Part shown: positions 51,699 through 64,000 of the stretch, piece by piece
Position numbering within the stretch: the first letter of the stretch is position 1
Layout: every line of letters begins with the position of its first letter
Origin: a virus
Length of the DNA stretch: 64,000 nt
Virus record (IMG/VR): IMGVR_UViG_3300045988_138661
Direction: 5' to 3' (one strand)
Position numbers and translations under genes: made by a program
The notes under the pieces: model-generated
Database searches by the model: none
What the model was told of the DNA's origin: nothing
The model's input: the letters and a program-made list of their open reading frames with translations, nothing else

Positions 51699-52754
51699 TT
51701 AAGATTTTTTGGCCTTAGAATTTCGACAACTTTTACAAATACTATAAAAGCCATCTTTACTTGTTTTATTTTTACTAAAATATTTATTGTGAGCTAATTT
51801 TATTTTGCCACAACGACTACATTTTTTATATTTACCTTTTTCAACATTTAAATAATAATTATCTAAGTATTCATCTTCCGCAGTCGAAGCAATTAATTTT
51901 GGAATTTTATTACGCCATAAACTTGAAATATATTCAAGGCTGTGCTTAATACCAAATTCCATTTGTATTTTCTCTTGAATGTCAATATTTTGTAAACCAT
52001 CAATTTTATATTCAACGATTCTATCATAAAGAGGATAATTAGCTAAAGCTTTATCACAAAGTTTATCAAAATCCTCCATTAAATACCATAAATCTTTATC
52101 ATATTCGCCCCAACTATCTTGCTTTAATCGGGAATAATTACATAAAATCGCAGAACATATCTCAGGTCTTAATAAACTAATTCCATCAGGAATGGGAAAA
52201 CCATCATCATCAAAAATAAATGTTTCATCATCTAATGGAATATAAGACTTTGATCTGGTTAATTTTGTAGGCACTATTGGACGACGATAAGCATTTTTTA
52301 TAACATACTAATCTTTACGCATTTCAATAAGAGCCTTTTTAATAACAAAAGCATCTTTACCTTCTGTTACTTTTAATTTAGCCTCCCAAACATTAATGGC
52401 TTCTCTTAACTAATTTAAACTTGGTATCTCTTCTAAATCTTTTTTTGTAATTGTAATATGTGGTTGAAATATTGTATTTCTATTATCTGTAATTAAATTA
52501 TAAATTCCATCTTCGCCATTTTCGAGTTGGGAAACAAGACCTTCAAAAGAAGTCTCACGTTTATTAACTGTAGCCATACGATTATCAGTTAATAATTTTT
52601 TCTCCTTTTTTTCTTGTTTCTCCATACAAAGAACCAAATAGTCTGCTAAAATTTCTAAATACTTTTCAGGCGGATCTGGATTATCAGCCAAAATTTGTTC
52701 GACTAATTGATTTCTTTCTTCTGGAGTTTGTAAAGAATAATCAAGTTTTATCAT
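51699..52754 (-). CDS. Hypothetical protein, 351 aa, with a C-terminal zinc ribbon (CSRCGK...CKSCRNSK) and 2 TAG. First gene of the leftward arm.
   Basis: ORFs 52410..52754 and 51699..52274 share one frame; the gap was hand-checked. SD ggaggtaaaaaATG. TAA at 51701-51699. Confidence 0.45.
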
Positions 52755-52946
52755 TTTTTACCTCCAGTCTATGTTTATATTATACTCGAAAAAATTTTTT
52801 TTGTCAAGTTTCATTTAAAAATTTTTCTTTTTATATTTAAAAATTTTTTTAACAAAACAAATAACTTTTGCCCAATCACGCCCTACGATTTGACATTTTT
52901 TATTTTTTATTTTATTATTATTATAAGAAAAAGAAAAGGAGTATTT
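52755..52946. promoter_or_regulatory. Divergent promoter region separating the leftward recoded arm from the rightward standard-code arm.
   Basis: Minus strand: TTGACA-N18-TATAAT then SD. Plus strand: TTGACA-N17-TATTAT then aaaggag and ATG at 52947. Very AT-rich. Confidence 0.5.
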
Positions 52947-53802: not shown

Positions 53803-53920
53803 ATCATGATTTGAAATTAAAAATTGATTTGTTGTTTTAACCGTATTCTGAAATTGAAAATTGATTTAGATAAATTTAAATTATTCTTCGTGATTTGAAA
53901 TTGAAAATTGATTTAGATTG
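53803..53920. repeat. Three direct repeats of about 25 bp (core GAAATTGAAAATTGATTT), spaced about 42 bp apart. Iteron-like.
   Basis: tgatttgaaattaaaaattgattt / ctgaaattgaaaattgatttagat / tgatttgaaattgaaaattgatttagat, inside a 570-bp non-coding stretch. Confidence 0.6.
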
Positions 53921-54092
53921 CGTTTTGACCACGCAAAAGGAAAAACACAAATAAAAAAAAATTTTTTCCCGAAATACACCCCCGCCCTATAAGGTTCTAA
54001 CTTGTTTATTCTCTGAGAGTATACCAGCCTTACTCTCGCTCTTTTGCGGAACGCAAGACCCCATCCCGCATAAATGCCCCGGTAAACGTTGC

Positions 54093-54135
54093 TCGGCTCG
54101 CTGGCGGTAGTGGCGAGCCGAGTTTTATAAAAATC
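54093..54135 (+). terminator. GC hairpin plus U-tract (ctcggctcgc tggcggtagtg gcgagccgag ttttat); copy E of the GC-hairpin module.
   Basis: 10-bp stem. Followed by TTGCACAAA..ATGCACAAA and a promoter. Confidence 0.5.
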
Positions 54136-54289
54136 AGCAGTTTGCACAAATTTCTCGCCGAAACTTCGTCATAATGCACAAACATCAAAATGCCCGAAAC
54201 TACGCCATCACATTTGGGTAAAATGACTATTGACAATCCAGTAGCCATGTGCTATACTTGTATCATCAAAAAGAAAGAGGTAAATCAAA

Positions 54290-54655
54290 ATGAAGAACAT
54301 TTCCAAAATCATCACCATGGCCATTGCTATCATTCTCTCCGTGTCTTTCTTTGGCCCGTTCCACGACCACACAACCGCGGAAGCCTGTGAGGAAGCGCCC
54401 CAGTCCTACGACCTCTCGGTCATTGAGAATTGGTGCGGTTCAGGCACGGAGCGCGGAAGTATCCGTTTCGTCGGCGCAGAGGTCTATGAGCGCGAGGGCG
54501 ATACACTGACGCTCATTGATGAGCAAGGCAATCTGTGGGACGTGGAAGCACTCAACATTGATGACAACGACTTCTTGCTCTTGTGGATTAACGACAATGA
54601 CACTGACACTGTGGAAGATGATACAATCATTAAGGTATGGAGAGAGGCTTACTAA
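54290..54655 (+). CDS. Secreted small protein, 121 aa, with a signal peptide (MKNISKIITMAIAIILSVSFFGP).
   Basis: ORF track. Promoter tattgacaatccagtagccatgtgctatact. RBS aagaaagaggtaaatcaaaATG. Confidence 0.6.
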   Translation: MKNISKIITMAIAIILSVSFFGPFHDHTTAEACEEAPQSYDLSVIENWCGSGTERGSIRFVGAEVYEREGDTLTLIDEQGNLWDVEALNIDDNDFLLLWINDNDTDTVEDDTIIKVWREAY

Positions 54656-54684
54656 GTCTCTCTCTTTCTTGCGGATCGGCGAAG

Positions 54685-54702
54685 ATTGTTAAAAAATTAA
54701 CA
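54685..54702. promoter_or_regulatory. Perfect palindrome TTGTTAAAAAATTAACAA (operator-like), about 25 nt upstream of a -35 hexamer. Also at 55109-55126, and a variant at 59041-59058.
   Basis: ggcgaagATTGTTAAAAAATTAACAAg and ggcgtagATTGTTAAAAAATTAACAAa are near-identical 27-mers. Confidence 0.5.
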
Positions 54703-54783
54703 AGCAAAGAAGAGTAAAAAACTCTTGACAAATGCGCAATGATGTGCTACAATGTAGATACAATAAGAAAGGGGAATACTCAG

Positions 54784-55074
54784 ATGACTAATAAGAATTT
54801 TTATAATGCTCTCAAAGCAGAAAAGGAACGGTTGATGAACGAAAGCAAGCAGGCATCCCGCGACTGCCAGATTAAGCATGGTGAGATGTCAAAGGCATGG
54901 AACATTGTCAATGCCCTTGAAAGCTTGGGTAAGTTTGGCACGCAGGAACTCAGCAACGCGTATGATAACTATGAGGAAGCCAGCTACGCAAGTATGTTAG
55001 CAGACAACCACTTCGATGACATTGATGAAGCCATTGATAAGATAAATGGATTGATGGGTCTTTACGAAGAATAA
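54784..55074 (+). CDS. Hypothetical protein, 96 aa.
   Basis: Promoter cttgacaaatgcgcaatgatgtgctacaat. RBS aaaggggaatactcagATG. Terminator agggagcagtaatgctccct. Confidence 0.6.
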   Translation: MTNKNFYNALKAEKERLMNESKQASRDCQIKHGEMSKAWNIVNALESLGKFGTQELSNAYDNYEEASYASMLADNHFDDIDEAIDKINGLMGLYEE

Positions 55075-55204
55075 GGGAGCAGTAATGCTCCCTTTCTAAC
55101 GGCGTAGATTGTTAAAAAATTAACAAAGATTTTTCTCAAAAAGGTCTTGACAAATCAGTTAGAATGTGGTATTCTATAATCACAAAGGGAAAGGGGAAAG
55201 AAAA

Positions 55205-55414
55205 ATGATTTATGGCATTGTTTATTATACTAAGGGCGGTCAGGGCTATCTCTTCCAGCAAGCGTTCGAAGAACAGCGCGCTATGGAGATTGCAGGTAAG
55301 ATGAACGACTTACTCGCGACAGGTGCTACGATGTATAATGATAAGTCCTATGGCAAGCTCGACTTGCGGAACGTTGAGTATTTCACAGTTGAACCCAGTA
55401 GCGAAATGTATTAA
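55205..55414 (+). CDS. Hypothetical protein, 69 aa.
   Basis: Promoter cttgacaaatcagttagaatgtggtattctataat. RBS aaaggggaaagaaaaATG. GC hairpin plus T-tract terminator follows. Confidence 0.55.
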   Translation: MIYGIVYYTKGGQGYLFQQAFEEQRAMEIAGKMNDLLATGATMYNDKSYGKLDLRNVEYFTVEPSSEMY

Positions 55415-55599
55415 GGGCGGGAGCGGGCTCCCCGCTCTTTCTCTTGCGCCGTGGGGCGCGTGTAGAGCGTCCCAGCCCGAACTTTATCACAGTAAAGCAT
55501 TAAAGCAAAATTTTTTCCATTTTTTGCCAAAAACCACTTGACATTCCTATCCCGAAATGCTATAATAGTATCATCAAAAGAAAGAAAGAGGTAAATCAA

Positions 55600-55722
55600 A
55601 TGTCTATTCACGATGGTCTTGTTCTTCTCGCTATCTATGTTGGTGTTATCGGCGCGGGCGCGCTCATCGAATACGTGGAGCACCGCGTAAAGAGAGCGGT
55701 TCATCGCAGAAAGAGAAGTTGA
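55600..55722 (+). CDS. Hydrophobic micro-protein, 40 aa (MSIHDGLVLLAIYVGVIGAGALIEYVEHRVKRAVHRRKRS): one TM helix plus a basic tail.
   Basis: Own promoter (cacttgacattcctatcccgaaatgctataat), RBS and terminator (agagaagtt gaaaa aacttctct ttttttt). Confidence 0.4.
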   Translation: MSIHDGLVLLAIYVGVIGAGALIEYVEHRVKRAVHRRKRS

Positions 55723-55776
55723 AAAACTTCTCTTTTTTTATAAAAAACACTTGACAAATCCAACAGCCGGTGCTAT

Positions 55777-55925
55777 ACTATAATTGTCAAGAGGGGAAGA
55801 GATAAGTTACTTCCCAAAGGGTGTGTGGCAAGTAGCCATTTCCTTTGATAAAACGCTTAGTTGGAGCGACCAGACAGGGCGCGCACTGTCCGCAAAAGTA
55901 GAGAATAAAAAAATTCCAACTTCTC
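55777..55925 (+). ncRNA. Candidate non-coding transcript from promoter 55751-55776; begins UGUCAAGAGG and contains hairpins.
   Basis: No credible ORF (track ORF 55784..56023 runs across the next promoter). Stem gggaag/cttccc and gacag-ggcgcgca-ctgtc. Confidence 0.3.
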
Positions 55926-56104
55926 AAAAAAACCTCTTGACAGACCCCTTAGAGTGTGATACAATAAGGATGTCAAGAGGCAGACAGGAGCGAACAACCT
56001 CTCCCCAATGCGTAGTTGGGTGAAGTAAAACAAAATCTCCCTACCGAACAAAAAAGTTCAAAAAACCTCTTGACAAACCCCTTAGAGTGTGATACAATAA
56101 GGGT
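55924..56104 (+). repeat. Tandem duplication of a 44-bp promoter unit (aaaaacctcttgacaNaccccttagagtgtgatacaataagg) at 55924-55967 and 56061-56104.
   Basis: Near-identical copies. The first is followed by AUGUCAAGAGG..., the second by the tRNA-like element. Confidence 0.6.
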
Positions 56105-56110
56105 ACAGAT

Positions 56111-56222
56111 GGCGGTGAGGTAGAACGGTTCTACTTCCACAAAGATGGCTGAGATACAAAAGTGTCGCTCACTTGGAAACGTTCGCTATTGGAAAATGTG
56201 GGTTCAACTCCCACCACCGCCT
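56111..56222 (+). tRNA. tRNA-like element of 113 nt: 7-bp acceptor stem (GGCGGTG/CACCGCC), D-arm (GTAG-AACGGTT-CTAC) and canonical T-arm (GTGGG-TTCAACT-CCCAC). Has an insertion of about 40 nt in the anticodon region, so either an atypical or intron-containing tRNA, or a tRNA-like RNA.
   Basis: Arms identified by hand. Possible anticodon stem 56136-56140 / 56189-56193 enclosing the insert. The promoter places the TSS about 5 nt upstream. Length is atypical and the anticodon is unresolved. Confidence 0.45.
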
Positions 56223-56302
56223 CAAAATTTTTTGAAAAAACACTTGACAAATCCAAAAGTAGATGTTATAATGTAGATACAATAAGAAAGGGGATAAAAA
56301 CC

Positions 56303-56566
56303 ATGACTACTTACAACATTCTCACTATTGGCCCTTCTCGTGAACCGAAGCTCGCGGGCAAGTTCAACGTTGCGGATACTGAAAACTTCCTTGACCGGTT
56401 AGAGGAAACGCTCTACATTCTCTTTGAATTAGAGCCGAAATCCCGCGAATGGAAACGCGAATTTCTCAAACATCTTTTTGCGGAATTCACTTATCACTTT
56501 TGCGAAGATTCCCGCGTTGAAAAGCAAGGCAACAATATTATCGTTTATGAAGAAAATGAGGGCTGA
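56303..56566 (+). CDS. Hypothetical protein, 87 aa (MTTYNILTIGPSREPK...).
   Basis: Promoter cacttgacaaatccaaaagtagatgttataat. RBS aaaggggataaaaaccATG. Terminator gggctgaaaaagccc plus T8. Confidence 0.6.
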   Translation: MTTYNILTIGPSREPKLAGKFNVADTENFLDRLEETLYILFELEPKSREWKREFLKHLFAEFTYHFCEDSRVEKQGNNIIVYEENEG

Positions 56567-56682
56567 AAAAGCCCTCATTTTTTTTCAAACTTTTTTCAAA
56601 AAACTATTGACATTTACTGCCCTAAGTGGTATTATAATATCAGAAAGGGAAAGGAAAATCCCGAACACCAGAAAGGTTAGCT

Positions 56683-56874
56683 ATGGATACTTTCGAAATG
56701 TATTACGAGAAATTCATGAAGATGCGCAAGGCTGACATTATTCGCGAGGGTCAGACTTGGGATATTTGGGCAAACTGCCAAAGCACTGCCGATAGCCTGA
56801 TGAAGTGGACAAAGCCCGTTCTTGCGAGAGTTCTTGCTGGACGCCTGGACCGTTTGGAAAAGCGGGGCTACTAA
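56683..56874 (+). CDS. Hypothetical protein, 63 aa.
   Basis: ORF track. Promoter ctattgacatttactgccctaagtggtattataat. Terminator agcggggctactaagccccgct. Confidence 0.55.
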   Translation: MDTFEMYYEKFMKMRKADIIREGQTWDIWANCQSTADSLMKWTKPVLARVLAGRLDRLEKRGY

Positions 56875-56959
56875 GCCCCGCTTCTTTCTTGAAAAAAGTT
56901 CTTGACAAATCTCGAATCTATGGTATAATAAGAGTATAAAAGGAAAGGGGATAAACAAA

Positions 56960-57199
56960 ATGACTTTGGACATGATTAAAAATGTAATTGGCACGGTAAA
57001 AGGCGCGCTGATGTTCTATGAGGGGAATGGCGTCGAAGTGATAAACGAAAACACTTGCGGTCGCTATCTCAAAGACCGCAAAGGTCGCATGACTTTGAAT
57101 GGTGATGTGTTAGACGCAAGCGAAGAGTGGGTGCTGGGATTGCCGGTCAGCGATTTGAAAGCCAGAGATAACGTTCTCATTATTTATGTTGATGGCTAA
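56960..57199 (+). CDS. Hypothetical protein, 79 aa.
   Basis: ORF track. Promoter cttgacaaatctcgaatctatggtataat. Terminator atctcccc aaaaa tggggagat plus T7. Confidence 0.55.
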   Translation: MTLDMIKNVIGTVKGALMFYEGNGVEVINENTCGRYLKDRKGRMTLNGDVLDASEEWVLGLPVSDLKARDNVLIIYVDG

Positions 57200-57253
57200 A
57201 ATTAAATTTTTTGAATTAAAAATCTCCCCAAAAATGGGGAGATTTTTTTGTAC

Positions 57254-57440
57254 ATTTTATCTATTGACAATCCCAAAACTTCATGGTATAATCGGCCGGC
57301 GCGCGAACGGACCTGGCGCGCCGAGTTTTTGTCAATAGGCGGGTTGCACAAATTTTTGGGGCAAATCTTTGTGCATAATGTCAATAGACAGAATCCCGAA
57401 TTGGTGCTATACTATAATCACAGTAAGGGAAGGAAAACCT
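57254..57440 (+). promoter_or_regulatory. GC-hairpin module copy A: promoter P1 (TTGACA 57254 / TATAAT 57277), GC hairpin 57283-57315 (cggccGGCGCGCgaacggacctgGCGCGCCgag) plus T5, TTGTCAAT, dyad TGCACAAA-N17-TTTGTGCA, then promoter P2 (TAGACA-N17-TATACT).
   Basis: Read directly from the sequence. Comparable modules at 60790-60960 (B), 62828-63010 (C), 59041-59250 (D) and 54093-54280 (E). Confidence 0.5.
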
Positions 57441-57464
57441 ACCAAACCGGAAAGGGATAACAAC

Positions 57465-57773
57465 ATGATTAACATTCGTTCTATTCTCAAACTCGCTGAA
57501 AATGACGGTCTGACCCTCAAACATGGCAAGAAGGTCAATTACAAGTCCGGCTGGCAGGTCGCCACTAATGGCGTTGAATGTAAGACCGCCCGCGAAGCCA
57601 TTAACGCGGTCAAGGAATATGGCGGCAACTGCGGCGTGTGGTTTGCGAACGGCATTTATTATGTTGACAAGTCCAAGAGGGTGCAGACCAAGAAGCAGGC
57701 GCTTGAAATCGGCAAGGCGTGCAACCAAATCAGTGTATATGGCTGGGCGCGCGGCAATCTGGCTTACTGCTAA
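57465..57773 (+). CDS. Hypothetical protein, 102 aa.
   Basis: RBS ggaaagggataacaacATG. ORF track frame. Confidence 0.6.
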   Translation: MINIRSILKLAENDGLTLKHGKKVNYKSGWQVATNGVECKTAREAINAVKEYGGNCGVWFANGIYYVDKSKRVQTKKQALEIGKACNQISVYGWARGNLAYC

Positions 57774-57851
57774 AAAATTAAATAGAGGGCTTGACAAAAC
57801 AAGCCCTCTATGCTATAATAAAGGCACAATAAAGGAAAGGGAGAAAACAAC

Positions 57852-58121
57852 ATGGAAATTAAATATGCTCACGAAATGGCGGCTATCGCTAAGGACATCC
57901 GCACCGCCAAGCGCGCCAAAGATACTGCTACGGCCCGCGCCTATCTTGAAGAAAACCTGATGAAAGATATTGAAGACCACGCGGAAAAAGGCGAGAATTA
58001 TCTGTCTCGCTGTCTCGTTGCCATTGAAGATGAAGCCGTGAAAGAAGCCTTAAAAAATCTTTTGCGGAATTATGGCTATACAACTTCTTATTCAAACGGC
58101 GTTCTCACCGTAAGGTGGTAA
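57852..58121 (+). CDS. Hypothetical protein, 89 aa.
   Basis: ORF track. Promoter with the -35 hexamer inside the palindrome agagggcttgacaaaacaagccctct. Terminator agagggaaaatttttccctct plus T. Confidence 0.6.
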   Translation: MEIKYAHEMAAIAKDIRTAKRAKDTATARAYLEENLMKDIEDHAEKGENYLSRCLVAIEDEAVKEALKNLLRNYGYTTSYSNGVLTVRW

Positions 58122-58225
58122 GGTAAAAGAGGGAAAATTTTTCCCTCTTTTTCTAAAAAACTTCTTGACAAATCCAAAAGCAGATGTTATAATAAAAGCA
58201 CAATAAAGGAAAGGGGAATAAATTA

Positions 58226-58297
58226 ATGGAATGTCCTTATTGCGATGGAAAGTGCGGAACACATGCTCAATGCGTTAAATGCGGAAAAGGGAAATAA
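58226..58297 (+). CDS. Candidate 23-aa Cys-rich micro-protein (MECPYCDGKCGTHAQCVKCGKGK), a zinc-ribbon-like peptide.
   Basis: Strong RBS aaaggaaaggggaataaattaATG. Four CxxC-type Cys pairs. Confidence 0.3.
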   Translation: MECPYCDGKCGTHAQCVKCGKGK

Positions 58298-58299
58298 AA

Positions 58300-58656
58300 A
58301 TGGGAACGGAATTCTTAATTATTGGCGGAATTTTTAGCGCAGTCCTTGCGCTGTTTGTCTGCCTTGTCTGTTGGTGCCGCATGGAAAAGTCTCACCCAAT
58401 AGTCAGATTGTTAGTTGGTATCCTTATTTCGTGCGCCATCGGTTATGGCATGACGGGCGCGTTAGTCGCAGAACATAATGCCGATAGAAAAGCATGGAAC
58501 AACGGCTATTGCTCCATTTGCGGAAATGAAATGGAATTTGTAAATGCTTCTCATGGTCGGCATGGAACAGTTTATTACTATTGGTATTGCGATGAGTGCG
58601 GTCATACGTTAGAGTTAACTTCTAACTTTGCAAAGGGGGAAACAGATAATGAATGA
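58300..58656 (+). CDS. Membrane protein with two TM helices plus a C-terminal zinc ribbon (CSICG...CDECG), 118 aa.
   Basis: RBS ggaaaagggaaataaaaATG. ORF track frame. Confidence 0.55.
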   Translation: MGTEFLIIGGIFSAVLALFVCLVCWCRMEKSHPIVRLLVGILISCAIGYGMTGALVAEHNADRKAWNNGYCSICGNEMEFVNASHGRHGTVYYYWYCDECGHTLELTSNFAKGETDNE

Positions 58657-58855
58657 AAAAACTATCCCACAGGCTTTGAGAGAACAGGCAGACGCCATTG
58701 AAAAGTTAGCTCAAAGAATTGCGAAAGAAAGCAAGGAATTTCCAGACGAGGAAGACCGCAGAGACGGCGGAGAACTTGCGGACGCTTTATTTGCGATTCA
58801 ATCAAAGCTCCGCTATGAGTACTCTTGGATTGCGGAAACCATGTGGGACGTGTAA
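58649..58855 (+). CDS. Hypothetical acidic protein, 68 aa.
   Basis: RBS caaagggggaaacagataATG, overlapping the previous stop. Terminator tcaggcgagat ttaat tatctcgcctga plus T. Confidence 0.5.
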   Translation: MNEKTIPQALREQADAIEKLAQRIAKESKEFPDEEDRRDGGELADALFAIQSKLRYEYSWIAETMWDV

Positions 58856-58934
58856 TTTTCAGGCGAGATTTAATTATCTCGCCTGAAAATTTTTTTCAAA
58901 AAACTATTGACAAACTCACCCCGTTGTGGTATTA

Positions 58935-59036
58935 TAATCATGTCAAGAGGAAGTGGTAAGCCTCTTGAAGTAGTGAACAAATTTCTCATACTATGGTTTG
59001 CGCGGTAGCCGATAATTACCGCGCCCTTTCTATTTC
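58935..59036 (+). ncRNA. Candidate small RNA or leaderless micro-ORF transcript. Starts AUGUCAAGAGG, has a 5-prime hairpin caagagg/cctcttg and a terminator gcgcggta-gccgataat-taccgcgc plus T-run.
   Basis: Promoter ctattgacaaactcaccccgttgtggtattataat immediately upstream. A possible 22-aa leaderless ORF (MSRGSGKPLEVVNKFLILWFAR) ends at TAG. Confidence 0.3.
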
Positions 59037-59258
59037 ATTTTTGTTAAAATTTTAACAATGATTGTTCGGCCGGGCGCGCACGGACCACGCGCCCGGAATT
59101 TCAATTATATCACAGGGCCAGCAATTTGTCAAGCAAAAAGTCGCGAAAATTTGCATAAATTATTTTTCCCAATTTTGTGCGATCCGTCAATAGACAAATC
59201 TCTAAGAGTGTGTTATATTATAATTGTTCCAAGGGAACAGAAAGATGAGGTAAATAAA

Positions 59259-59465
59259 ATGACTAACTACAACATTCACTCTTTTATCAAGACCCAGCTT
59301 CTCCATGCCGAGCAGATGCCCAGCGATGCCGAACTTTTCAAGCATAACGCCTATGGCGCAGTCTCGTGGGAGTTATATCGCACGAATGACCATGCCCTTG
59401 AAGAACAGTGGGCAAATGTATATGCTCCCAAGTTCGACGCCATCATCAGAAATTATCATTTCTGA
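59259..59465 (+). CDS. Hypothetical protein, 68 aa (MTNYNIHSFIK...).
   Basis: RBS gatgaggtaaataaaATG. Promoter tagacaaatctctaagagtgtgttatatt. Confidence 0.55.
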   Translation: MTNYNIHSFIKTQLLHAEQMPSDAELFKHNAYGAVSWELYRTNDHALEEQWANVYAPKFDAIIRNYHF

Positions 59466-59534
59466 TAAAAAGGGCTTGACAAAAGCCCTTTCGCATGATA
59501 TAATACATATACAATCAAGAAAGAGGTAAAACAA

Positions 59535-59873
59535 ATGCTTATCAAAATGTCAAAACACGCCACGCAAGACCGCATTGACCGCCTGCTCTTCATCTACGAT
59601 AATGTAGGAATCGGCGAACCGTATATCGACAGTGTTGAGGACGATGTTCTCTACACTATCACTACAACAGGTATTCTTCTTGTTCGTAGTGCTAAGGACG
59701 GAACACTCATTACAGCCTATATCGCGGATATTGATAAAATCACCGCAATATGGAGAAATAAGCACGGCGAGCGCCCTATGCCTGATAACCTTTACAAGCG
59801 GGTTCTCGCAAACGCGTTCTTTGATAGAATGTGGAATAAGCAAGAAAAGGAGAAAAAGAAAAATGTTCGGTAA
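59535..59873 (+). CDS. Hypothetical protein, 112 aa.
   Basis: ORF track. Promoter with the -35 hexamer inside aaagggcttgacaaaagcccttt. Confidence 0.6.
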   Translation: MLIKMSKHATQDRIDRLLFIYDNVGIGEPYIDSVEDDVLYTITTTGILLVRSAKDGTLITAYIADIDKITAIWRNKHGERPMPDNLYKRVLANAFFDRMWNKQEKEKKKNVR

Positions 59874-60216
59874 GAAAAAGAAGCCTTTCAATCCATATGA
59901 AAAACGCGCGGACGATGCGCTTTATGAAGTATGGGAAACGCGCGACCGCCTTTATGAAAAGACAAGGCAAGTCATTACGCGCGTAGGGGTGATTAACCTT
60001 TACCCCAATGGCGCTGACCGCGAGAAAGCCGTCTCTGACGCCGAAGAAGCGAAGCACGCTTTGCTTGTAGCTATTGGAGCATACGACACCGCGCGCATGG
60101 AATACAATGATTATGTTGAAAAAAACGCGGAAAAGTTTGACAACCATAAAGAAAAATGGACTACCACGAGCCATGAAATTATCGAATGGGCTTACAAATA
60201 CTATTATAAAGGGTGA
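59863..60216 (+). CDS. Hypothetical protein, 117 aa.
   Basis: RBS aaaaggagaaaaagaaaaATG, overlapping the upstream gene end. Confidence 0.55.
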   Translation: MFGKKKKPFNPYEKRADDALYEVWETRDRLYEKTRQVITRVGVINLYPNGADREKAVSDAEEAKHALLVAIGAYDTARMEYNDYVEKNAEKFDNHKEKWTTTSHEIIEWAYKYYYKG

Positions 60217-60221
60217 ATAAA

Positions 60222-60455
60222 ATGAAGATTACTATTAAGAATAATAAACTCGCCCCCTTTGGAGAAATTGCCAAGGGCGTAGTTTTCAAAGACCCGACCG
60301 CCGAAGATTATTACATCAAAATCGCCGCAGAGGTCGATGAAAATACCGGTGATGATGAATGGAATTGTCTCCATTTGGACAATTACGCTCTCGACTGTTT
60401 CGGCCTAAAAGATATGGTTCTCCCCATCTACGATGCGGAACTGATTATTCCCTGA
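60222..60455 (+). CDS. Hypothetical protein, 77 aa.
   Basis: RBS aaagggtgaataaaATG. Hairpin ggcggttgt-accccaaaaa-acaaccgcc follows. Confidence 0.55.
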   Translation: MKITIKNNKLAPFGEIAKGVVFKDPTAEDYYIKIAAEVDENTGDDEWNCLHLDNYALDCFGLKDMVLPIYDAELIIP

Positions 60456-60568
60456 TAAAACCGGACTTTGTCCGCGTTTCTCTCCCCCTTTCCTATGGCT
60501 TTGGCGGTTGTACCCCAAAAAACAACCGCCACCCTTTCCAAAAAATAAATTGAATGGAGATAAAAAAG

Positions 60569-60745
60569 ATGAAGAATGAGAAACTTAGTGAGGTTGTTAA
60601 AACTGTGTGCTTGATGGCACGATACGGCATTCAGAAGGGATATCCCTCGGGCGGGACAGAAGCAAATGACATGATTGAACGTGTCGCGCTTCTTGAAAAC
60701 AAGCTCGTTCCCATTCTCGTCGACCTTGAAGCCGTAGAAAACTAA
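60569..60745 (+). CDS. Hypothetical protein, 58 aa.
   Basis: RBS aatggagataaaaaagATG. Terminator aatcacccaa tttgggtgatt plus T8. Confidence 0.5.
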   Translation: MKNEKLSEVVKTVCLMARYGIQKGYPSGGTEANDMIERVALLENKLVPILVDLEAVEN

Positions 60746-60967
60746 ATGAAAAATCACCCAATTTGGGTGATTTTTTTTGTTTACTTTCACTATTGACAAA
60801 GTTCCTTGAATGTGATAAAATCGTCGGCGCGCGGACGATTGTGGCGCGCCGAGTTTTTTGTCAAGAGGTAAGTTCAACAAATTTTCGCACGAATTTTTGT
60901 GTAAAATGCCAATAGACAAAAATCCTATAATGTGGTAAGATGTATACAACAAATAGAGGGGGCTAAA

Positions 60968-61315
60968 ATGATGGTTGCATGGTATTGGTTAATTCTCGCG
61001 TTTTGCGTGGGTATTGCGTTCGCTACAATCACTGATGAGTGGTATGATTGGGAAAACACTTTAACTGACATTCTTGCATGGATTGCTCTGATTATCGGCT
61101 TCGTTCCTTTGACTTTCTATTGCATATTTCTCAAACTGACGGTTTTCCACCCCACTACGCGAGAGAAGTTTGAGGAAGTCAAAAAGGTTAGCGAAGAAAC
61201 TTGTAAAATCTATCGAGTATGCGGAAACGTGTATTTCTGGATTGACCTTAAAGCAACAAAAATCTATAACAAGGTATTCTTTATTCGAGTAAAGGAAACT
61301 GAAAACAATGGGTGA
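60968..61315 (+). CDS. Small membrane protein, 115 aa.
   Basis: RBS aaatagagggggctaaaATG. Preceded by GC-hairpin module copy B. Confidence 0.55.
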   Translation: MMVAWYWLILAFCVGIAFATITDEWYDWENTLTDILAWIALIIGFVPLTFYCIFLKLTVFHPTTREKFEEVKKVSEETCKIYRVCGNVYFWIDLKATKIYNKVFFIRVKETENNG

Positions 61316-61466
61316 AAGAGTTAATGTTTTATGTTTAATTGAGTGGTTGCGCGCTTGGACGGAAACCTTTAATGACTGCGCTTGTTGTCCTTTGTCCAAC
61401 GAGTGCGACCGCCGGAGCATCAGTTATGAATGTGCTGATGACCTATTAGAAAAATTAAAGGAGTAA
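61308..61466 (+). CDS. Cys-rich 52-aa protein (…FNDCACCPLSNECDRRSISYECADD…).
   Basis: ATG overlaps the upstream stop. RBS-like ggaaactgaaaacaATG. Confidence 0.4.
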   Translation: MGERVNVLCLIEWLRAWTETFNDCACCPLSNECDRRSISYECADDLLEKLKE

Positions 61467-61539
61467 ATTAAAAACTCTCTATTGACATTTTTGTTATAAT
61501 ATGATATTATTATAATAGAAAAAGGAAAGGGTGATAATA

Positions 61540-62013
61540 ATGAATACAATTCTTCTGTTCGCGCTTTGCACGGCGGTGAATGTTATTCTGTCAACTATCA
61601 AAAGCATTTTGACTGTTAAGGGCGGAAAACTTAGCGCGTCTTTCATCAACGCTCTCACTTATGGTTTTTATTCCTATGTGATTGTGCTGACTTCTGCGGA
61701 CGGTATGCCTATTTGGTTAAAAATGGCTATTACTGCCATTTGTAATTTCGTAGGCGTTTACCTTGTCAAGTGGATTGAAGAAAAAGCGCGTAAAGATAAA
61801 TTATGGAAAGTCGAGCTTACCGTACCGACAAGATACACTAATACCATTGACTTTGACTTACATGATGTTCCACATTCTTACATTGAATTGAGCGATAAAC
61901 ATACGCTTTTCAATTTTTACTGCGCGACCCAAAAGGAAAGCGCAAAAGTCAAGGCTATCGCTAATCAGTATGAAGCAAAATATTTTGTTGCGGAAAGCAA
62001 AAATCTTGAATAA
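61540..62013 (+). CDS. Membrane protein, 157 aa (N-terminal 3-4 TM helices plus a soluble C-terminal domain).
   Basis: Promoter ctctattgacatttttgttataat. RBS aaaaggaaagggtgataataATG. Confidence 0.6.
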   Translation: MNTILLFALCTAVNVILSTIKSILTVKGGKLSASFINALTYGFYSYVIVLTSADGMPIWLKMAITAICNFVGVYLVKWIEEKARKDKLWKVELTVPTRYTNTIDFDLHDVPHSYIELSDKHTLFNFYCATQKESAKVKAIANQYEAKYFVAESKNLE

Positions 62014-62077
62014 AGGGCTTGACAAAAGCCTTTTATTCTGCTATACTTAACGTATCAAGTGAAAGGGGAAAATTAAA

Positions 62078-62530
62078 ATGAAAGCTACTGGTATCGTTCG
62101 CAGAATTGATGACCTTGGACGTGTGGTCATTCCGAAAGAGATTCGCCGGACTTTGAAGATCCGCGAGGGCGACCCGCTTGAAATCTTCCTTGGAGAGGAC
62201 AACTGCGTTTGCTTCAAGAGGTATTCAGTGCTTGGTTCGTTGACCGAAGAGGCTCTGCGAACCGCTATTACAATGGCGTCAAATTCCGGTCTACGCCCTA
62301 TCGCAATTTATGATACTACTGTAAAACTGCGGGGCATGGAAAACTTTTCGGCCTATGTCCCGACCCAGTGGGAATTTGAAAGAAAGCCATTTGTTTTCAA
62401 TAATACCTATGGCGTTTATCCGGTTTGCGCGGACGGCGACCTTGTGGGTTATGCGGTTTGCGACCAGCAAGACATGGGGTGTGAAATGGACATGATTGTT
62501 CGCTACCTCAGCATTGTGTCTGAACGTTAA
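62078..62530 (+). CDS. AbrB/SpoVT-family transcriptional regulator, 150 aa (N-terminal swapped-hairpin domain MKATGIVRRIDDLGRVVIPKEIRRTLKIREGDPLEIF).
   Basis: The N-terminus matches the hallmark AbrB/Abh/SpoVT N-domain almost residue for residue. Own promoter and RBS. Confidence 0.75.
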   Translation: MKATGIVRRIDDLGRVVIPKEIRRTLKIREGDPLEIFLGEDNCVCFKRYSVLGSLTEEALRTAITMASNSGLRPIAIYDTTVKLRGMENFSAYVPTQWEFERKPFVFNNTYGVYPVCADGDLVGYAVCDQQDMGCEMDMIVRYLSIVSER

Positions 62531-62606
62531 AAAAATAGCACAAGGGGCTTGACAAAACAAGTCCCTTGTGCTATAATAAAACCATCAAAGGAAAGGGGCA
62601 AATAAA

Positions 62607-62783
62607 ATGGAAATTGAAAAGAAATTCCAGGTTGATTATAGCGGTAAAAATCCTTGGGACCAGTATTACGACAATCGGGTTAATTTTGATTCCGAAGAAA
62701 AAGCCGATGCTTTTATCCAAAAGTTGATGGAAGATGAAAATATCTATCAAATTTTCAAAACCATTACTGCCAGATACAGATAA
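62607..62783 (+). CDS. Hypothetical protein, 58 aa.
   Basis: RBS aaggaaaggggcaaataaaATG. Terminator ggtgaaaattcacc plus T7. Confidence 0.5.
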   Translation: MEIEKKFQVDYSGKNPWDQYYDNRVNFDSEEKADAFIQKLMEDENIYQIFKTITARYR

Positions 62784-63021
62784 AATTTGAGGTGAAAATT
62801 CACCTCATTTTTTTGGTTATTTTGCCTATTGACAAAAATCCAATAGTGTGATAAAATGGCCGGCCGTTTACGTATGCCACGGCCGGAACTTCAATTATAC
62901 CAGAAGCCAGCAAATTTGTCAATCGGCAAAATGCACAAAAATCTAATTAGTTTTTTTCCCAAAATGTGCTTGACAAAATCCAGCAGATGCGCTATAATGT
63001 ATTTAGAAAGAGGTGAAAAAC

Positions 63022-63180
63022 ATGGATAATTTCAAGAAAGCCACTGTAAAAGATTATACTGCTTGGGATTTGAATTGTAGAAACATTTGCCCTCACGATA
63101 AATCTTCTAATAAACTGGAAAAGCGTATCAAGCGCAAGGCTCGCAGAAGTCTTAAACAAAATTTGAAAAAAAAGTATTGA
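63022..63180 (+). CDS. Small basic protein, 52 aa.
   Basis: RBS agaaagaggtgaaaaacATG. The stop lies inside the -35 hexamer of the next promoter. Confidence 0.45.
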   Translation: MDNFKKATVKDYTAWDLNCRNICPHDKSSNKLEKRIKRKARRSLKQNLKKKY

Positions 63181-63237
63181 CAAAATACAGCAAATGCGCT
63201 ATAATGTAAGTACAGTAAAGGAAAGGGGTAAACACCA

Positions 63238-63738
63238 ATGAAAATCACTTACATCAAGTCTCACGTTGTGACCACTCGACGCTCTATCAACTTTGACATG
63301 GACGGCACTATCGCTGACCTCTACGGCGTCAAGGATTGGCTCGCGCTTCTCCGTTCGGAAAATCCCACACCCTATCGGACTGCCGCTCCTATGTGCGATA
63401 TGGCTGAATTGAATGAGGTTTGCGAACTTCTCCGCGCCGAGGGTTGGGAAATCAACATCATCACTTGGCTTTCCAAAGATTCGAGCGAGGAATACAAAAA
63501 CCTCGTGCGTAAAGCAAAGCGTGCGTGGCTTGAAGAACAGGGCTTCCACTATGACCACTTCCACGGCGTCCAGTATGGCGCGACCAAAGCCGACAGCGTG
63601 CGCGACCGCTATGACGTGTCCATCTTGGTTGACGATAATGAAAAGGTTCGGAATGGTTGGCACTTGGGCGCTACCATTGACCCGACCGCAGTAAACATTA
63701 TCGAAAAACTTTCGGAACTTTTGGAGAAAAGGGCTTGA
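63238..63738 (+). CDS. HAD-superfamily 5-prime(3-prime)-deoxyribonucleotidase-like protein (NT5C-type; FDMDGTIAD motif I), 166 aa.
   Basis: DxDGT motif near the N-terminus and a size typical of the NT5C family. Promoter attgacaaaatacagcaaatgcgctataat. Confidence 0.55.
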   Translation: MKITYIKSHVVTTRRSINFDMDGTIADLYGVKDWLALLRSENPTPYRTAAPMCDMAELNEVCELLRAEGWEINIITWLSKDSSEEYKNLVRKAKRAWLEEQGFHYDHFHGVQYGATKADSVRDRYDVSILVDDNEKVRNGWHLGATIDPTAVNIIEKLSELLEKRA

Positions 63739-63792
63739 CAAAGCCCTACTCCAATGGTATAATAAATACATCAAATGAAAGGGGAAAATAAA

Positions 63793-64000
63793 ATGTTTGT
63801 TCTTTTAATTCTGCTGTCTCTCACAATTTCGTTCCTGCTTATCTCTGGTTTAGTTTGGCTTCTCTGTTGGCTTCTCCCTGCCATTGGTATCACCGCAATC
63901 GGCACTTTCACCATCGTGTTCTCGTGGAAGCTGGCACTCGCAATTTGGATTATTCTCCTGCTTCTGAGCACTATCTTCCCGAGCGGTAGTAATAGGGGGT
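63793..64000 (+). CDS. Partial membrane protein (multi-TM; MFVLLILLSLTISFLLISGLVWLL...), running off the window.
   Basis: RBS aaaggggaaaataaaATG. Promoter with the -35 hexamer inside the agggcttgacaaagccct palindrome. Confidence 0.5.
   Translation, partial: MFVLLILLSLTISFLLISGLVWLLCWLLPAIGITAIGTFTIVFSWKLALAIWIILLLLSTIFPSGSNRG

What the first reader, a model, noticed from the sequence alone, without database searches (positions are those of the whole stretch)
57785..63747. -35 hexamer embedded in a GC palindrome (GGGCTTGACAAAAGCCC), five copies
At 57785, 59470, 62012, 62540 and 63728 the TTGACA lies inside a stem-loop (AGAGGGCTTG-ACAAAA-CAAGCCCTCT, AAAGGGCTT-GACAAA-AGCCCTTT and variants). On read-through RNA these would form 3-prime hairpins of the upstream message. 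On DNA they form a dyad over the -35 region. This looks like a compact combined stop signal and promoter, or a repressor site overlapping the -35 hexamer.
Basis: seen in the sequence. Interest (0 to 1): 0.5.

Follow-up and report, generated by a model that had tools for sequence, protein, structure and literature searches.

The report
Fused hairpin–promoter cassettes in a phage
Five strong early promoters of a gut phage each have their -35 box built into an RNA hairpin that takes the place of the upstream gene's terminator; this compact promoter-plus-stop cassette, which also acts as a recombination joint for swapping small genes, is already known from T4-like phages (PeSLs) and is seen here in a different phage lineage.

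Summary
Five consensus sigma-A/sigma-70 promoters (TTGACA-17-TATAAT, with extended -10) at 57791, 59476, 62019, 62549 and 63735 each have the -35 hexamer inside a GC-rich stem-loop (-14 to -29 kcal/mol, z -3.5 to -9.9). The window is a TAG-recoded tailed phage of Firmicutes type. The sites lie in its standard-code early region, which holds 22 strong promoters in 10 kb. In 14 close relatives, 25-30% of strong promoters are wrapped this way. The stems covary and the loop register drifts by 5 nt. Wrapped hairpins never co-occur with a separate upstream terminator (0/76 vs 126/261). Chimeric cassettes mark gene-cassette deletions between relatives. The same 17-mer-plus-promoter occurs in at least 56 distinct contexts in viral contigs and in a cultured Enterococcus phage. 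This matches PeSLs (promoter-early stem-loops) of T4-like phages, whose nt-1/KVP40 consensus is A3-4G3-loop-C3T3-4. Caveat: the canonical U-tract lies on the antisense side. On the sense strand the hairpin is probably an attenuator or 3' stabiliser, not a full terminator. The repressor-operator reading is not supported. Verdict: new member of a known kind, of moderate interest.

The parts
57782..57811 (+). Site 1 hairpin (12 bp stem, loop ACAAAA) containing the -35 TTGACA at 57791-57796. The -10 TATAAT is at 57814-57819. The upstream ORF stop TAA is at 57771-57773 and the downstream ORF ATG at 57852.
   Evidence: (dG -21, z -5.8)
59469..59491 (+). Site 2 hairpin (9 bp stem, loop GACAA) containing the -35 at 59476-59481. 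The -10 is at 59499-59504. The upstream stop TGA is at 59463-59465 and the downstream ATG at 59535. This is the only exact copy of GGGCTTGACAAAAGCCC.
   Evidence: (dG -14.2, z -3.5). One search shows that relative to L216 this cassette is a recombinant (crossover in the shared SD).
62008..62038 (+). Site 3 hairpin (13 positions, of which 12 Watson-Crick pairs and one G.T wobble) containing the -35 at 62019-62024. The -10 TATACT is at 62042-62047. The upstream stop TAA at 62011-62013 lies inside the 5' arm. The downstream ATG at 62078 starts an AbrB/MazE-fold ORF. This is the only site with a fair + strand U-tract (TTTTATTC).
   Evidence: (dG -16.9, z -6.9)
62535..62574 (+). Site 4 hairpin (17 positions, of which 16 Watson-Crick pairs and one G.T wobble) containing the -35 at 62549-62554. 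Its 3' arm runs into the -10 at 62572-62577. The upstream stop TAA is at 62528-62530 and the downstream ATG at 62607. The cassette plus ORF 62607-62783 is an indel between relatives.
   Evidence: (dG -29.2, z -9.9)
63717..63758 (+). Site 5 two-tier hairpin: inner stem 63730-63736/63741-63747 and outer stem 63721-26/63749-54. The -35 is at 63735-63740 and the -10 at 63758-63763. The stop codon TGA of the upstream ORF (63736-63738) lies inside the -35 hexamer, so the 5' arm is coding. The downstream ATG is at 63793.
   Evidence: (dG -22, z -6.1)
54230..63763 (+). Early-region promoter array: 22 promoters with at least 11 of 12 consensus matches, small mostly ORFan genes, and repeat families of 43-85 nt running from the A-tract to the ATG.

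Best explanation
These are PeSL-type composite cassettes: an 'A-tract, hairpin, consensus promoter, short 5'UTR, SD, ATG' unit of about 70-85 nt in the early (host-RNAP-transcribed) hyperplastic region of a TAG-recoded Firmicutes-type phage. The hairpin acts at the RNA level. It is a bidirectional intrinsic terminator that has been merged with the next gene's promoter. The -35 hexamer supplies the loop and the inner stem (CTTG...CAAG). The spacer and -10 replace the sense-strand U-tract. For the upstream message the hairpin therefore most likely acts as a partial terminator/attenuator and a 3'-end protecting structure. For antisense transcripts it remains a canonical terminator (hairpin plus T-run). 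The fusion saves about 45 nt per intergenic region. Because the core (GGGCTTGACAAA ... SD) is shared by many cassettes, it also serves as a short homology patch at which gene cassettes are deleted, inserted or swapped between related phages. Shown here: the structure, the covariation, the exclusivity with separate terminators, and the recombinant junctions. Inferred: actual termination or stabilisation, and promoter activity.
For: Promoter quality and hairpin stability. In 14 relatives 25-30% of strong promoters are wrapped, against 5.2% of random positions. Compensatory changes occur at orthologous sites: G-C<->T-A in site 1, G.T<->A-T<->G-C in site 4, T-A<->C-G in a third family, and A-T<->G-C in site 5 with a matching coding change. 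Formal pair count on 54 distinct elements: covariation 0.253 vs 0.123+-0.012 (0/500 shuffles reach it), double-sided changes 96 vs 43.5, and all slid registers lower. Stem extension beyond the searched core: 2.94 vs 1.44+-0.14 bp. Internal G.T/T.G 15 vs A.C/C.A 4. None of 76 wrapped promoters has a separate terminator within 90 nt upstream, against 126 of 261 unwrapped. The stop-to-ATG spacer is 68 vs 113 nt. Separate terminators in the region are mostly bidirectional, and wrapped ones keep only the antisense T-run. Chimeric cassettes sit at deletion junctions: L226, L222/L223, L219 and window site 2. A [wrapped promoter + ORF] insertion occurs next to an existing terminator. Repeat families of up to 85 nt. 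Of 101 occurrences of the 17-mer in viral contigs, 88 have a -10 at exactly 17 bp. The same element occurs in a cultured Enterococcus saphexavirus. A KVP40 PeSL has the same build. Published PeSL description and assays: PMC2839356 and PMC4122927.
Against: No transcript data exist for this phage, so neither start nor stop activity has been observed. On the + strand only 6 of 68 elements have at least 6 T in the 9 nt after the GC core (mean 3.8). Of the five window sites only site 3 has a fair U-tract. By canonical rules four of five would terminate poorly. The G.U excess is small and comes partly from orthologues: 15 vs 4 in the clade, and 3 vs 0 in the broader set, which is not significant. 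The inner GGGC/GCCC is conserved in sequence (94-99%). This could reflect cassette homogenisation, but it does not by itself exclude a sequence-specific reader.
Confidence: 0.65

Rival explanations
1. The hairpin does not terminate on the sense strand at all. It is only an RNA 3'-end stabiliser or processing site on read-through polycistronic early RNA, acting as an exonuclease block or an RNase III-type substrate for the long 12-17 bp stems, as at the intercistronic hairpins of T7 early mRNA (from memory).
For: Weak + strand U-tracts. Long, nearly perfect stems at sites 1 and 4. In a Firmicutes phage transcriptome only 13 of 66 mapped 3' ends were canonical intrinsic terminators (PMC12282133).
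Against: Wrapped hairpins replace bona fide terminators one for one. About a quarter of the wider family do carry T-runs, including the Enterococcus phage copy AAGCCCTTTTTT. A PeSL stem-loop terminated as well as rrnB T1 in a reporter assay (PMC2839356).
Confidence: 0.15
2. The palindrome is a DNA operator for a dimeric repressor (for example the AbrB/MazE-fold protein encoded at 62078-62527) that shuts off a subset of early promoters by occluding the -35.
For: The dyad overlaps the -35. The inner GGGC...GCCC is 94-99% conserved. A DNA-binding-fold gene lies between sites 3 and 4.
Against: The partner of base -1 lies at offsets 7, 8, 9, 10 or 12, so half-site spacing varies by 5 bp and the dyad centre by 2.5 bp. 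Stem length ranges from 6 to 17 bp. Outer arms differ in sequence but remain complementary. G.T positions persist across orthologues. There is exclusivity with terminators. The element is present in unrelated phages, including an Enterococcus saphexavirus and KVP40-type PeSLs.
Confidence: 0.05
3. The hairpin has no function of its own. The five copies are paralogous duplicates of one promoter cassette, and the palindrome is a hitch-hiking or recombination-generated by-product.
For: The cassettes are a repeat family and recombine with each other.
Against: Compensatory double changes and partner-shuffle and slide controls show selection for pairing. One chimera with mismatched halves (L222/L223) still pairs through the shared core. 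Position and exclusivity are non-random.
Confidence: 0.05
4. DNA cruciform extrusion at the palindrome makes the promoter sensitive to supercoiling.
For: A perfect 12-17 bp palindrome with AT-rich flanks at sites 1 and 4.
Against: Most stems are short (6-9 bp core). G.T positions would be mismatches in both cruciform arms. Nothing links the elements to topology.
Confidence: 0.02

Closest known systems
PeSLs (promoter-early stem-loops) of T4-like phages: RB49/phi1 (Arbiol et al. 2010, PMC2839356) and T4/PST, KVP40/nt-1 (Comeau et al. 2014, PMC4122927)
   Same: A strong sigma-70-type early promoter, an AT-rich upstream tract holding the upstream stop codon, a G-run/C-run stem-loop, SD plus ATG at the 3' end, and about 100 bp of conserved sequence. 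They lie between small ORFans in hyperplastic regions and sit at indel or replacement junctions with chimeric elements. A stem-loop overlapping the -35 is one of the five described positional classes. The nt-1/KVP40 consensus A3-4G3-loop-C3T3-4 is essentially the motif here. A KVP40 site aligns to the window's site 2 cassette at 78% over 59 nt.
   Different: The host phage is not T4-like. Its terminase relatives are large Firmicutes siphophages and the TAG-recoded gut phage Phass-1. The promoters are Gram-positive style with an extended -10. The stem-loop is always centred on the -35, whereas RB49/phi1 mostly place it between the -35 and -10 or over the -10. The sense-strand U-tract is largely lost. 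Mini-circles and terminator activity were not tested here.
Bidirectional intrinsic (Rho-independent) terminators
   Same: A GC-rich stem, a loop of 3-8 nt, and an A-tract upstream with pyrimidines or T downstream. Separate terminators in the same region are mostly bidirectional.
   Different: The downstream U-tract is replaced by the promoter spacer and -10. Only the antisense side keeps a canonical T-run.
Morons (autonomous promoter-gene-terminator insertions in lambdoid phages; cited in PMC2839356)
   Same: Single small genes with their own promoter and stop signal, present or absent between relatives.
   Different: Here the flanking regulatory cassette itself provides the homology used for recombination, as proposed for PeSLs and not for morons.
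Wrapped promoter in Enterococcus phage vB_OCPT_CCS2 (Saphexavirus, ON113173, about 12,396-12,433)
   Same: AAAGGGGCTTGACAAAAGCCCTTTTTT-N4-TATAAT between two genes, with the identical 17-mer core.
   Different: It has a full sense-strand U-tract, is a single site, is not annotated, and the phage is unrelated.

Membership tests
PeSL (promoter-early stem-loop cassette) | Near-consensus sigma-70-type early promoter (-35, about 17 bp, -10) | tested here: met
   12 of 12 matches at four sites and 11 of 12 at site 3, all with TG-extended -10. Activity not assayed.
PeSL (promoter-early stem-loop cassette) | Stable stem-loop within or adjacent to the promoter (five positional classes, including overlap with the -35); G-run/loop/C-run composition | tested here: met
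   dG -14 to -29 kcal/mol, z -3.5 to -9.9. GGGC/GCCC arms. Covariation.
PeSL (promoter-early stem-loop cassette) | AT-rich tract upstream of the -35 holding the upstream gene's stop codon; SD and start codon at the 3' end; conservation over roughly 100 bp | tested here: met
   A at 85% or more at -20..-16 (63-64% at -15 and -14). The hairpin starts 5 nt before to 8 nt after the end of the stop codon. Repeat families up to 85 nt reaching the ATG.
PeSL (promoter-early stem-loop cassette) | Located in a hyperplastic region between small, mostly ORFan early genes | tested here: met
   22 strong promoters in 10 kb. 6 of 9 flanking ORFs have no Pfam hit at E <= 0.01 and only one passes a curated cut-off. 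The region is mosaic between relatives.
PeSL (promoter-early stem-loop cassette) | Sits at insertion, deletion or replacement junctions between close relatives, with chimeric elements | tested here: met
   L226_9719: left half 96% identical to one cassette, right half 94% to another. L222/L223 and L219 likewise. Window site 2 is recombinant. Indel of [site 4 + ORF].
PeSL (promoter-early stem-loop cassette) | Stem-loop terminates or attenuates transcription (shown by lacZ reporter in phi1) | not testable with these tools
   Indirect only: exclusivity with separate terminators, but a weak sense-strand U-tract.
PeSL (promoter-early stem-loop cassette) | Excision of PeSL-flanked genes as mini-circles | not testable with these tools
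   Needs inverse PCR or long reads.
PeSL (promoter-early stem-loop cassette) | Taxonomic range as described so far: T4-like myoviruses of Gram-negative hosts | tested here: not met
   Terminase relatives are Firmicutes phages and Phass-1. PeSL papers in the library concern only T4-likes. This is a range, not a mechanistic criterion, so the element is filed as a new member outside the original range.
Canonical intrinsic terminator (sense strand) | U-rich tract (about 5-6 or more U in 8-9 nt) immediately 3' of a GC-rich stem | tested here: not met
   T count of 3-4 in 9 nt at all five sites. 6 of 68 in the clade have at least 6 T. Site 3 is fair only if the A/T base pairs are counted as tail (TTTTATTC).
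Canonical intrinsic terminator (antisense strand) | U-rich tract 3' of the stem on the minus strand | tested here: met
   T count 5-8 of 9 at the five sites. 45 of 68 have at least 6 T. Site 1 was called terminator-like on the minus strand by the scan.
Repressor operator overlapping the -35 | Half-sites of fixed sequence at fixed spacing and fixed position relative to the promoter | tested here: not met
   Five different registers (offsets 7-12) and variable outer arms.

The most novel reading that the evidence does not exclude
The geometry is functional, not merely economical. The only canonical U-tract is on the antisense side, so the elements are primarily antisense-transcription insulators built into each sense promoter. 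Candidate sources of antisense transcription are the consensus minus-strand promoters at 59,132 and 62,922, or late leftward transcription. On the sense strand, a polymerase that pauses or releases its RNA at the hairpin is already sitting on a consensus promoter and re-initiates there. That would give a terminate-and-reinitiate relay that resets transcript 5' ends gene by gene. In addition, the near-identity of build (and 78% identity over 59 nt) with KVP40 PeSLs could mean that such cassettes spread horizontally between very distant phages, instead of arising by convergence.
Probability: 0.12. Interest if true: 0.6.

Novelty: new member of a known kind. Interest (0 to 1): 0.35.

Why it matters
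The result extends the PeSL concept, a promoter and stop signal fused into one mobile regulatory cassette that drives shuffling of small early genes. The concept moves from T4-like phages of Gram-negative hosts to a TAG-recoded, Firmicutes-type gut phage clade and to many other uncultured phages: at least 56 distinct promoter contexts in IMG/VR and one cultured Enterococcus phage. This gives annotators a simple, recognisable signature for early-gene boundaries and recombination joints in uncultured phage genomes. It explains part of the mosaicism of host-takeover regions. It also offers compact natural terminator/promoter parts for Gram-positive synthetic biology. It does not reveal a new mechanism.

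Tried and rejected
Megablast of the early region against annotated phages found no match. Rfam at permissive thresholds found nothing above gathering for the sites or the region. ARAGORN found no tRNA or tmRNA. The idea that hairpin-wrapping is a general property of phage sigma-70 promoters was therefore dropped. A MAFFT alignment of all wrapped elements kept the promoter in register and could not align the 3' arms, so a fixed-register subset was used instead. The G.U vs A.C test on the broader set was too small to be significant (3 vs 0). A suspected chimeric assembly at the GC step (about 53.95 kb) was rejected because at least 10 independent contigs share the junction. The SPO1 host-takeover literature search gave no description of fused terminator/promoters in the open library. 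The operator, cruciform and neutral-duplicate readings were considered and down-weighted, as set out under the rival explanations.


Full report
OBSERVATION. The sequence is as described. GGGCTTGACA occurs exactly five times on the + strand, at 57787, 59472, 62015, 62545 and 63731. With one mismatch allowed there are 8 matches against 1.6 expected, and none of 100 shuffles reaches 8. Each copy is a full sigma-70/sigma-A consensus promoter: TTGACA, a 17-bp spacer, and TATAAT (TATACT at site 3), with a TG extended -10. About 30 nt further on comes a strong Shine-Dalgarno sequence and an ATG. In each copy the hexamer lies in the loop and inner stem of a GC-rich hairpin. The exact arms are 57782-93/57800-11, 59469-77/59483-91, 62008-20/62026-38, 62535-51/62558-74 and 63730-36/63741-47, the last with an outer helix. 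As RNA the hairpins fold at -14 to -29 kcal/mol, with z-scores of -3.5 to -9.9.

CONTEXT. The window is one phage genome in two compositional halves. Positions 1 to about 53,950 are 29% GC and coded on the minus strand. This half only reads as long genes if TAG is a sense codon: 15,471 aa fall in ORFs of at least 200 aa, against 4,307 under the standard code. It encodes a terminase, a portal protein, a virion protein and a sigma-factor-like protein. From about 53,950 to 64,000 the sequence is 43% GC, on the + strand and in the standard code. This half holds 22 promoters with at least 11 of 12 consensus matches and small genes, most of them without Pfam hits. The junction is shared by at least 10 independent contigs, so it is not an assembly chimera. 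The terminase's nearest annotated relatives are large Firmicutes phages (Enterococcus, Geobacillus, Brevibacillus, Bacillus) and the TAG-recoded gut phage Phass-1. The five sites therefore sit in the host-RNAP-transcribed early region of a non-T4-like, Firmicutes-type, recoded phage.

IS THE HAIRPIN SELECTED? Fourteen close relatives (92-99% protein identity to ORF 59535-59873) each carry 12-34 strong promoters per 20 kb or less. Of these, 25-30% are wrapped, against 5.2% of random positions by the same criterion. Orthologous sites show compensatory changes. Site 1 has AGAGGGC/GCCCTCT against ATATAGGGC/GCCCTATAT. Site 4 has G.T, A-T or G-C at the same pair. Another family has aatagggc/gtcctatt against aacagggc/gtcctgtt. 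Site 5 has aGGGC/GCCCt against GGGGC/GCCCC, where the 5' change also alters a codon. An exact scan of viral contigs for GGGCTTGACAAAAGCCC found 101 occurrences, of which 88 have a TATAAT-like hexamer exactly 17 bp downstream. Beyond the fixed core, stems extend by 2.94 bp against 1.44+-0.14 for shuffled partners. On 54 distinct fixed-register elements the formal count gives a covariation score of 0.253 against 0.123+-0.012 (0 of 500 shuffles reach it), 96 against 43.5 double-sided changes, and lower values in every slid register. The first unconstrained pair is AU 24, GC 19, GU 7, UA 2, with 2 unpaired. Internal wobble positions are G.T/T.G 15 against A.C/C.A 4 in the clade, which favours folding of + strand RNA. 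In the broader set the count is too small to be significant (3 vs 0).

WHAT SLOT DOES IT FILL? All five window hairpins begin 5 nt before to 8 nt after the end of the upstream ORF's stop codon. At site 3 the TAA is in the stem. At site 5 the TGA is inside TTGACA and the 5' arm is coding. Unwrapped promoters usually have a separate canonical terminator 15-25 nt upstream. Across distinct promoters, none of 76 wrapped ones has such a terminator within 90 nt, against 126 of 261 unwrapped ones (Fisher p about 1e-18, inflated by orthology). In the window the counts are 0 of 5 against 9 of 17. The stop-to-ATG spacer is 68 nt for wrapped sites and 113 nt for sites with a separate terminator. The wrapped hairpin therefore occupies the terminator's place.

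A CAVEAT THAT CHANGES THE MECHANISM. Wrapped promoters have a conserved A-tract at -20..-14, GGGC at -4..-1, and a pyrimidine-only but only half-T distal spacer. After the GC core, the + strand has on average 3.8 T in 9 nt, and only 6 of 68 elements have at least 6 T. The minus strand has 6.3 T on average, and 45 of 68 elements have at least 6 T. Separate terminators in the region are mostly bidirectional, with T-runs on both sides in 66 of 104. A wrapped element therefore looks like a bidirectional terminator whose sense-strand U-tract has been overwritten by the next promoter. I infer that on the sense strand it is an attenuator and/or a 3'-end protecting hairpin, not a full stop, while it remains a canonical terminator for antisense transcripts. 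Non-canonical 3' ends are common in a Firmicutes phage transcriptome (13 of 66 canonical; PMC12282133), so a weak U-tract does not exclude 3'-end formation. Stop codons within or next to the stem are tolerable where transcription outruns translation, as reported for B. subtilis (from memory; not checked here).

RECOMBINATION ROLE. The cassettes are repeat families of 43-85 nt running from the A-tract to the ATG. Synteny breaks between relatives fall at them. L222 and L226 lack window 57,820-59,470, which is exactly the interval from site 1 to site 2. Their junction elements are chimeras: the left 70 nt is 96% identical to the site-1-family cassette and the right 84 nt is 94-95% identical to another cassette, with the crossover inside GGGCTTGACA(AA). 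L219 carries a third chimera. Window site 2 is itself a recombinant relative to L216, with the crossover in the shared SD, and it lacks a small gene present there. The unit [site 4 wrapped promoter + ORF 62607-62783] is present in the window and L216 but absent in L213, L221, L222 and L226. In those four, the upstream gene is instead followed directly by a separate terminator.

COMPARISON WITH KNOWN SYSTEMS. This matches PeSLs (promoter-early stem-loops). These are composite sigma-70 early promoter plus stem-loop cassettes in the hyperplastic regions of T4-like phages. They have an AT-rich upstream tract, G-run/C-run stems and SD/ATG at the 3' end. They fall into five positional classes, one of which overlaps the -35. 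Terminator and promoter activity were demonstrated for them, along with a role in modular shuffling and mini-circle formation (PMC2839356). The nt-1/KVP40 consensus stem-loop is 'A3-4G3-loop-C3T3-4' with promoter TTGYVH-N17-TAWWAT (PMC4122927), which is essentially the motif here. A blastn search with the site 2 cassette recovered KVP40-group phages (59 nt, 78-79% identity, E 3e-4 to 1e-3). The KVP40 site reads aaaaaagggTTGACAgatgtcagccctttcgcg...TTATAC...atcaaatcaagaaagga...ATG. In the searchable literature PeSLs are reported only for T4-likes. The same wrapped promoter, with a full sense U-tract, occurs unannotated in the cultured Enterococcus saphexavirus vB_OCPT_CCS2. In 596 Gb of bacterial genomes the full motif occurs in only 17 loci. 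All are MAG contigs, mostly gut Clostridia bins, and several carry multiple copies. IMG/VR holds 65 perfect copies, so the motif is phage-enriched.

RIVALS. An operator for a dimeric repressor is disfavoured. The partner of base -1 lies at five different offsets (7-12), so spacing and dyad position float. Stems range from 6 to 17 bp, and outer arms differ in sequence yet pair. A pure stabiliser or processing role, without termination, cannot be excluded and would fit the weak sense U-tracts. A neutral duplicate is contradicted by the covariation. Cruciform extrusion is disfavoured by the G.T positions and the short stems. A general sample of phage promoters with the same core showed only weak arm complementarity, so the feature is cassette- or lineage-specific and not universal.

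VERDICT. The 'combined stop signal and promoter' reading is partly supported: the right kind of element, with termination untested and probably partial on the sense strand. The repressor reading is not supported. This is a new member of a known kind, namely PeSL-type cassettes outside T4-like phages, in a TAG-recoded Firmicutes-type gut phage clade. Interest is moderate to low (0.35).

Noticed in passing
window 1-53,900 (minus strand) vs 54,000-64,000: The late/structural half only reads as long genes if TAG is sense: 15,471 vs 4,307 aa in ORFs of at least 200 aa, with the longest ORF 2,760 aa. The early half uses the standard code. The two halves also differ sharply in GC (29% vs 43%), with the step at about 53,950, and at least 10 independent contigs share this junction. 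No suppressor tRNA is found in the window.
   Followed up: partly
window 57264-57335, 60793-60865, 62829-62922, 59060-59132, 54090-54125; many copies in L213-L226: A repeated unit: a consensus promoter fires within 2-4 nt into a GC hairpin (8-9 bp stem, 9-11 nt loop). The hairpin is followed either by GAGTTTTT or by a perfect consensus promoter on the opposite strand, giving face-to-face promoters about 35-40 nt apart. Stems covary between copies (CCGGCCGT/ACGGCCGG, CCGGTCGC/GCGACCGG, CGGACCGC/GCGGTCCG and others). There is no ORF and no Rfam hit. Function unknown; candidates are tiny hairpin RNAs, an RNAP sink, or an origin.
   Followed up: partly
window 56100-56230 (+), under promoter 56070: A tRNA-like or tmRNA-like fold: a 7-bp acceptor-like stem GGCGGTG/CACCGCC, a T-arm-like GTGGG-TTCAACT-CCCAC, and a central insert of about 65 nt. 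The Rfam tmRNA score is 16.8 bits (E 0.002, below gathering). ARAGORN is negative even with relaxed settings. It lies in a segment (55,756-56,228) that is replaced in relatives.
   Followed up: partly
window 55787, 55973, 58943, 60862 (+): Four promoter-proximal non-coding stretches begin with GTCAAGAGG, some forming a 5' hairpin with a downstream CCTCTTGA. They are probably small RNAs, with no ORF and no Rfam match.
   Followed up: no
window 51699-52754 (-) and promoter 52779-52807 (-): A sigma-factor-like gene (PHROG 5767, E 9e-55) with a C-terminal zinc-ribbon/HNH-like tail, driven by a perfect TTGACA-17-TATAAT on the minus strand and divergent from the early region. It is a plausible early-to-late switch.
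   Followed up: partly
window 53812-53830, 53849-53867, 53896-53914: Three direct repeats TGAAATTRAAAATTGATTT lie immediately before the GC step between the late and early halves. They are iteron-like and could mark an origin or a genome end.
   Followed up: no
window 63177-63182: At an unwrapped promoter the stop codon TGA of ORF 63013-63180 lies inside the -35 hexamer with no hairpin or terminator at all. This shows that read-through into the next promoter is tolerated at some junctions.
   Followed up: no
window 54684-54704 and 55107-55127: A repeated AT hairpin GATTGTTAAAAAATTAACAA(G/A) is inserted between a terminator and the next promoter in two consecutive intergenic regions.
   Followed up: no
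window 62078-62527 (+): This ORF has an AbrB/MazE (SpoVT) N-terminal fold (Pfam E 5e-10) and relatives in at least 246 viral-contig loci. It is by far the most widely conserved gene of this early region, and it is flanked by wrapped promoters 3 and 4.
   Followed up: partly
L307 (Vibrio phage KVP40 97,789-97,850) vs window 59465-59535: A KVP40 PeSL and the window's site 2 cassette share 78% identity over about 59 nt, including the 5'UTR (ACATATCAAATCAAGAAAGG vs ACATATACAATCAAGAAAGAGG), despite unrelated phages and hosts. Whether this is convergence or cassette transfer is undecided.
   Followed up: partly
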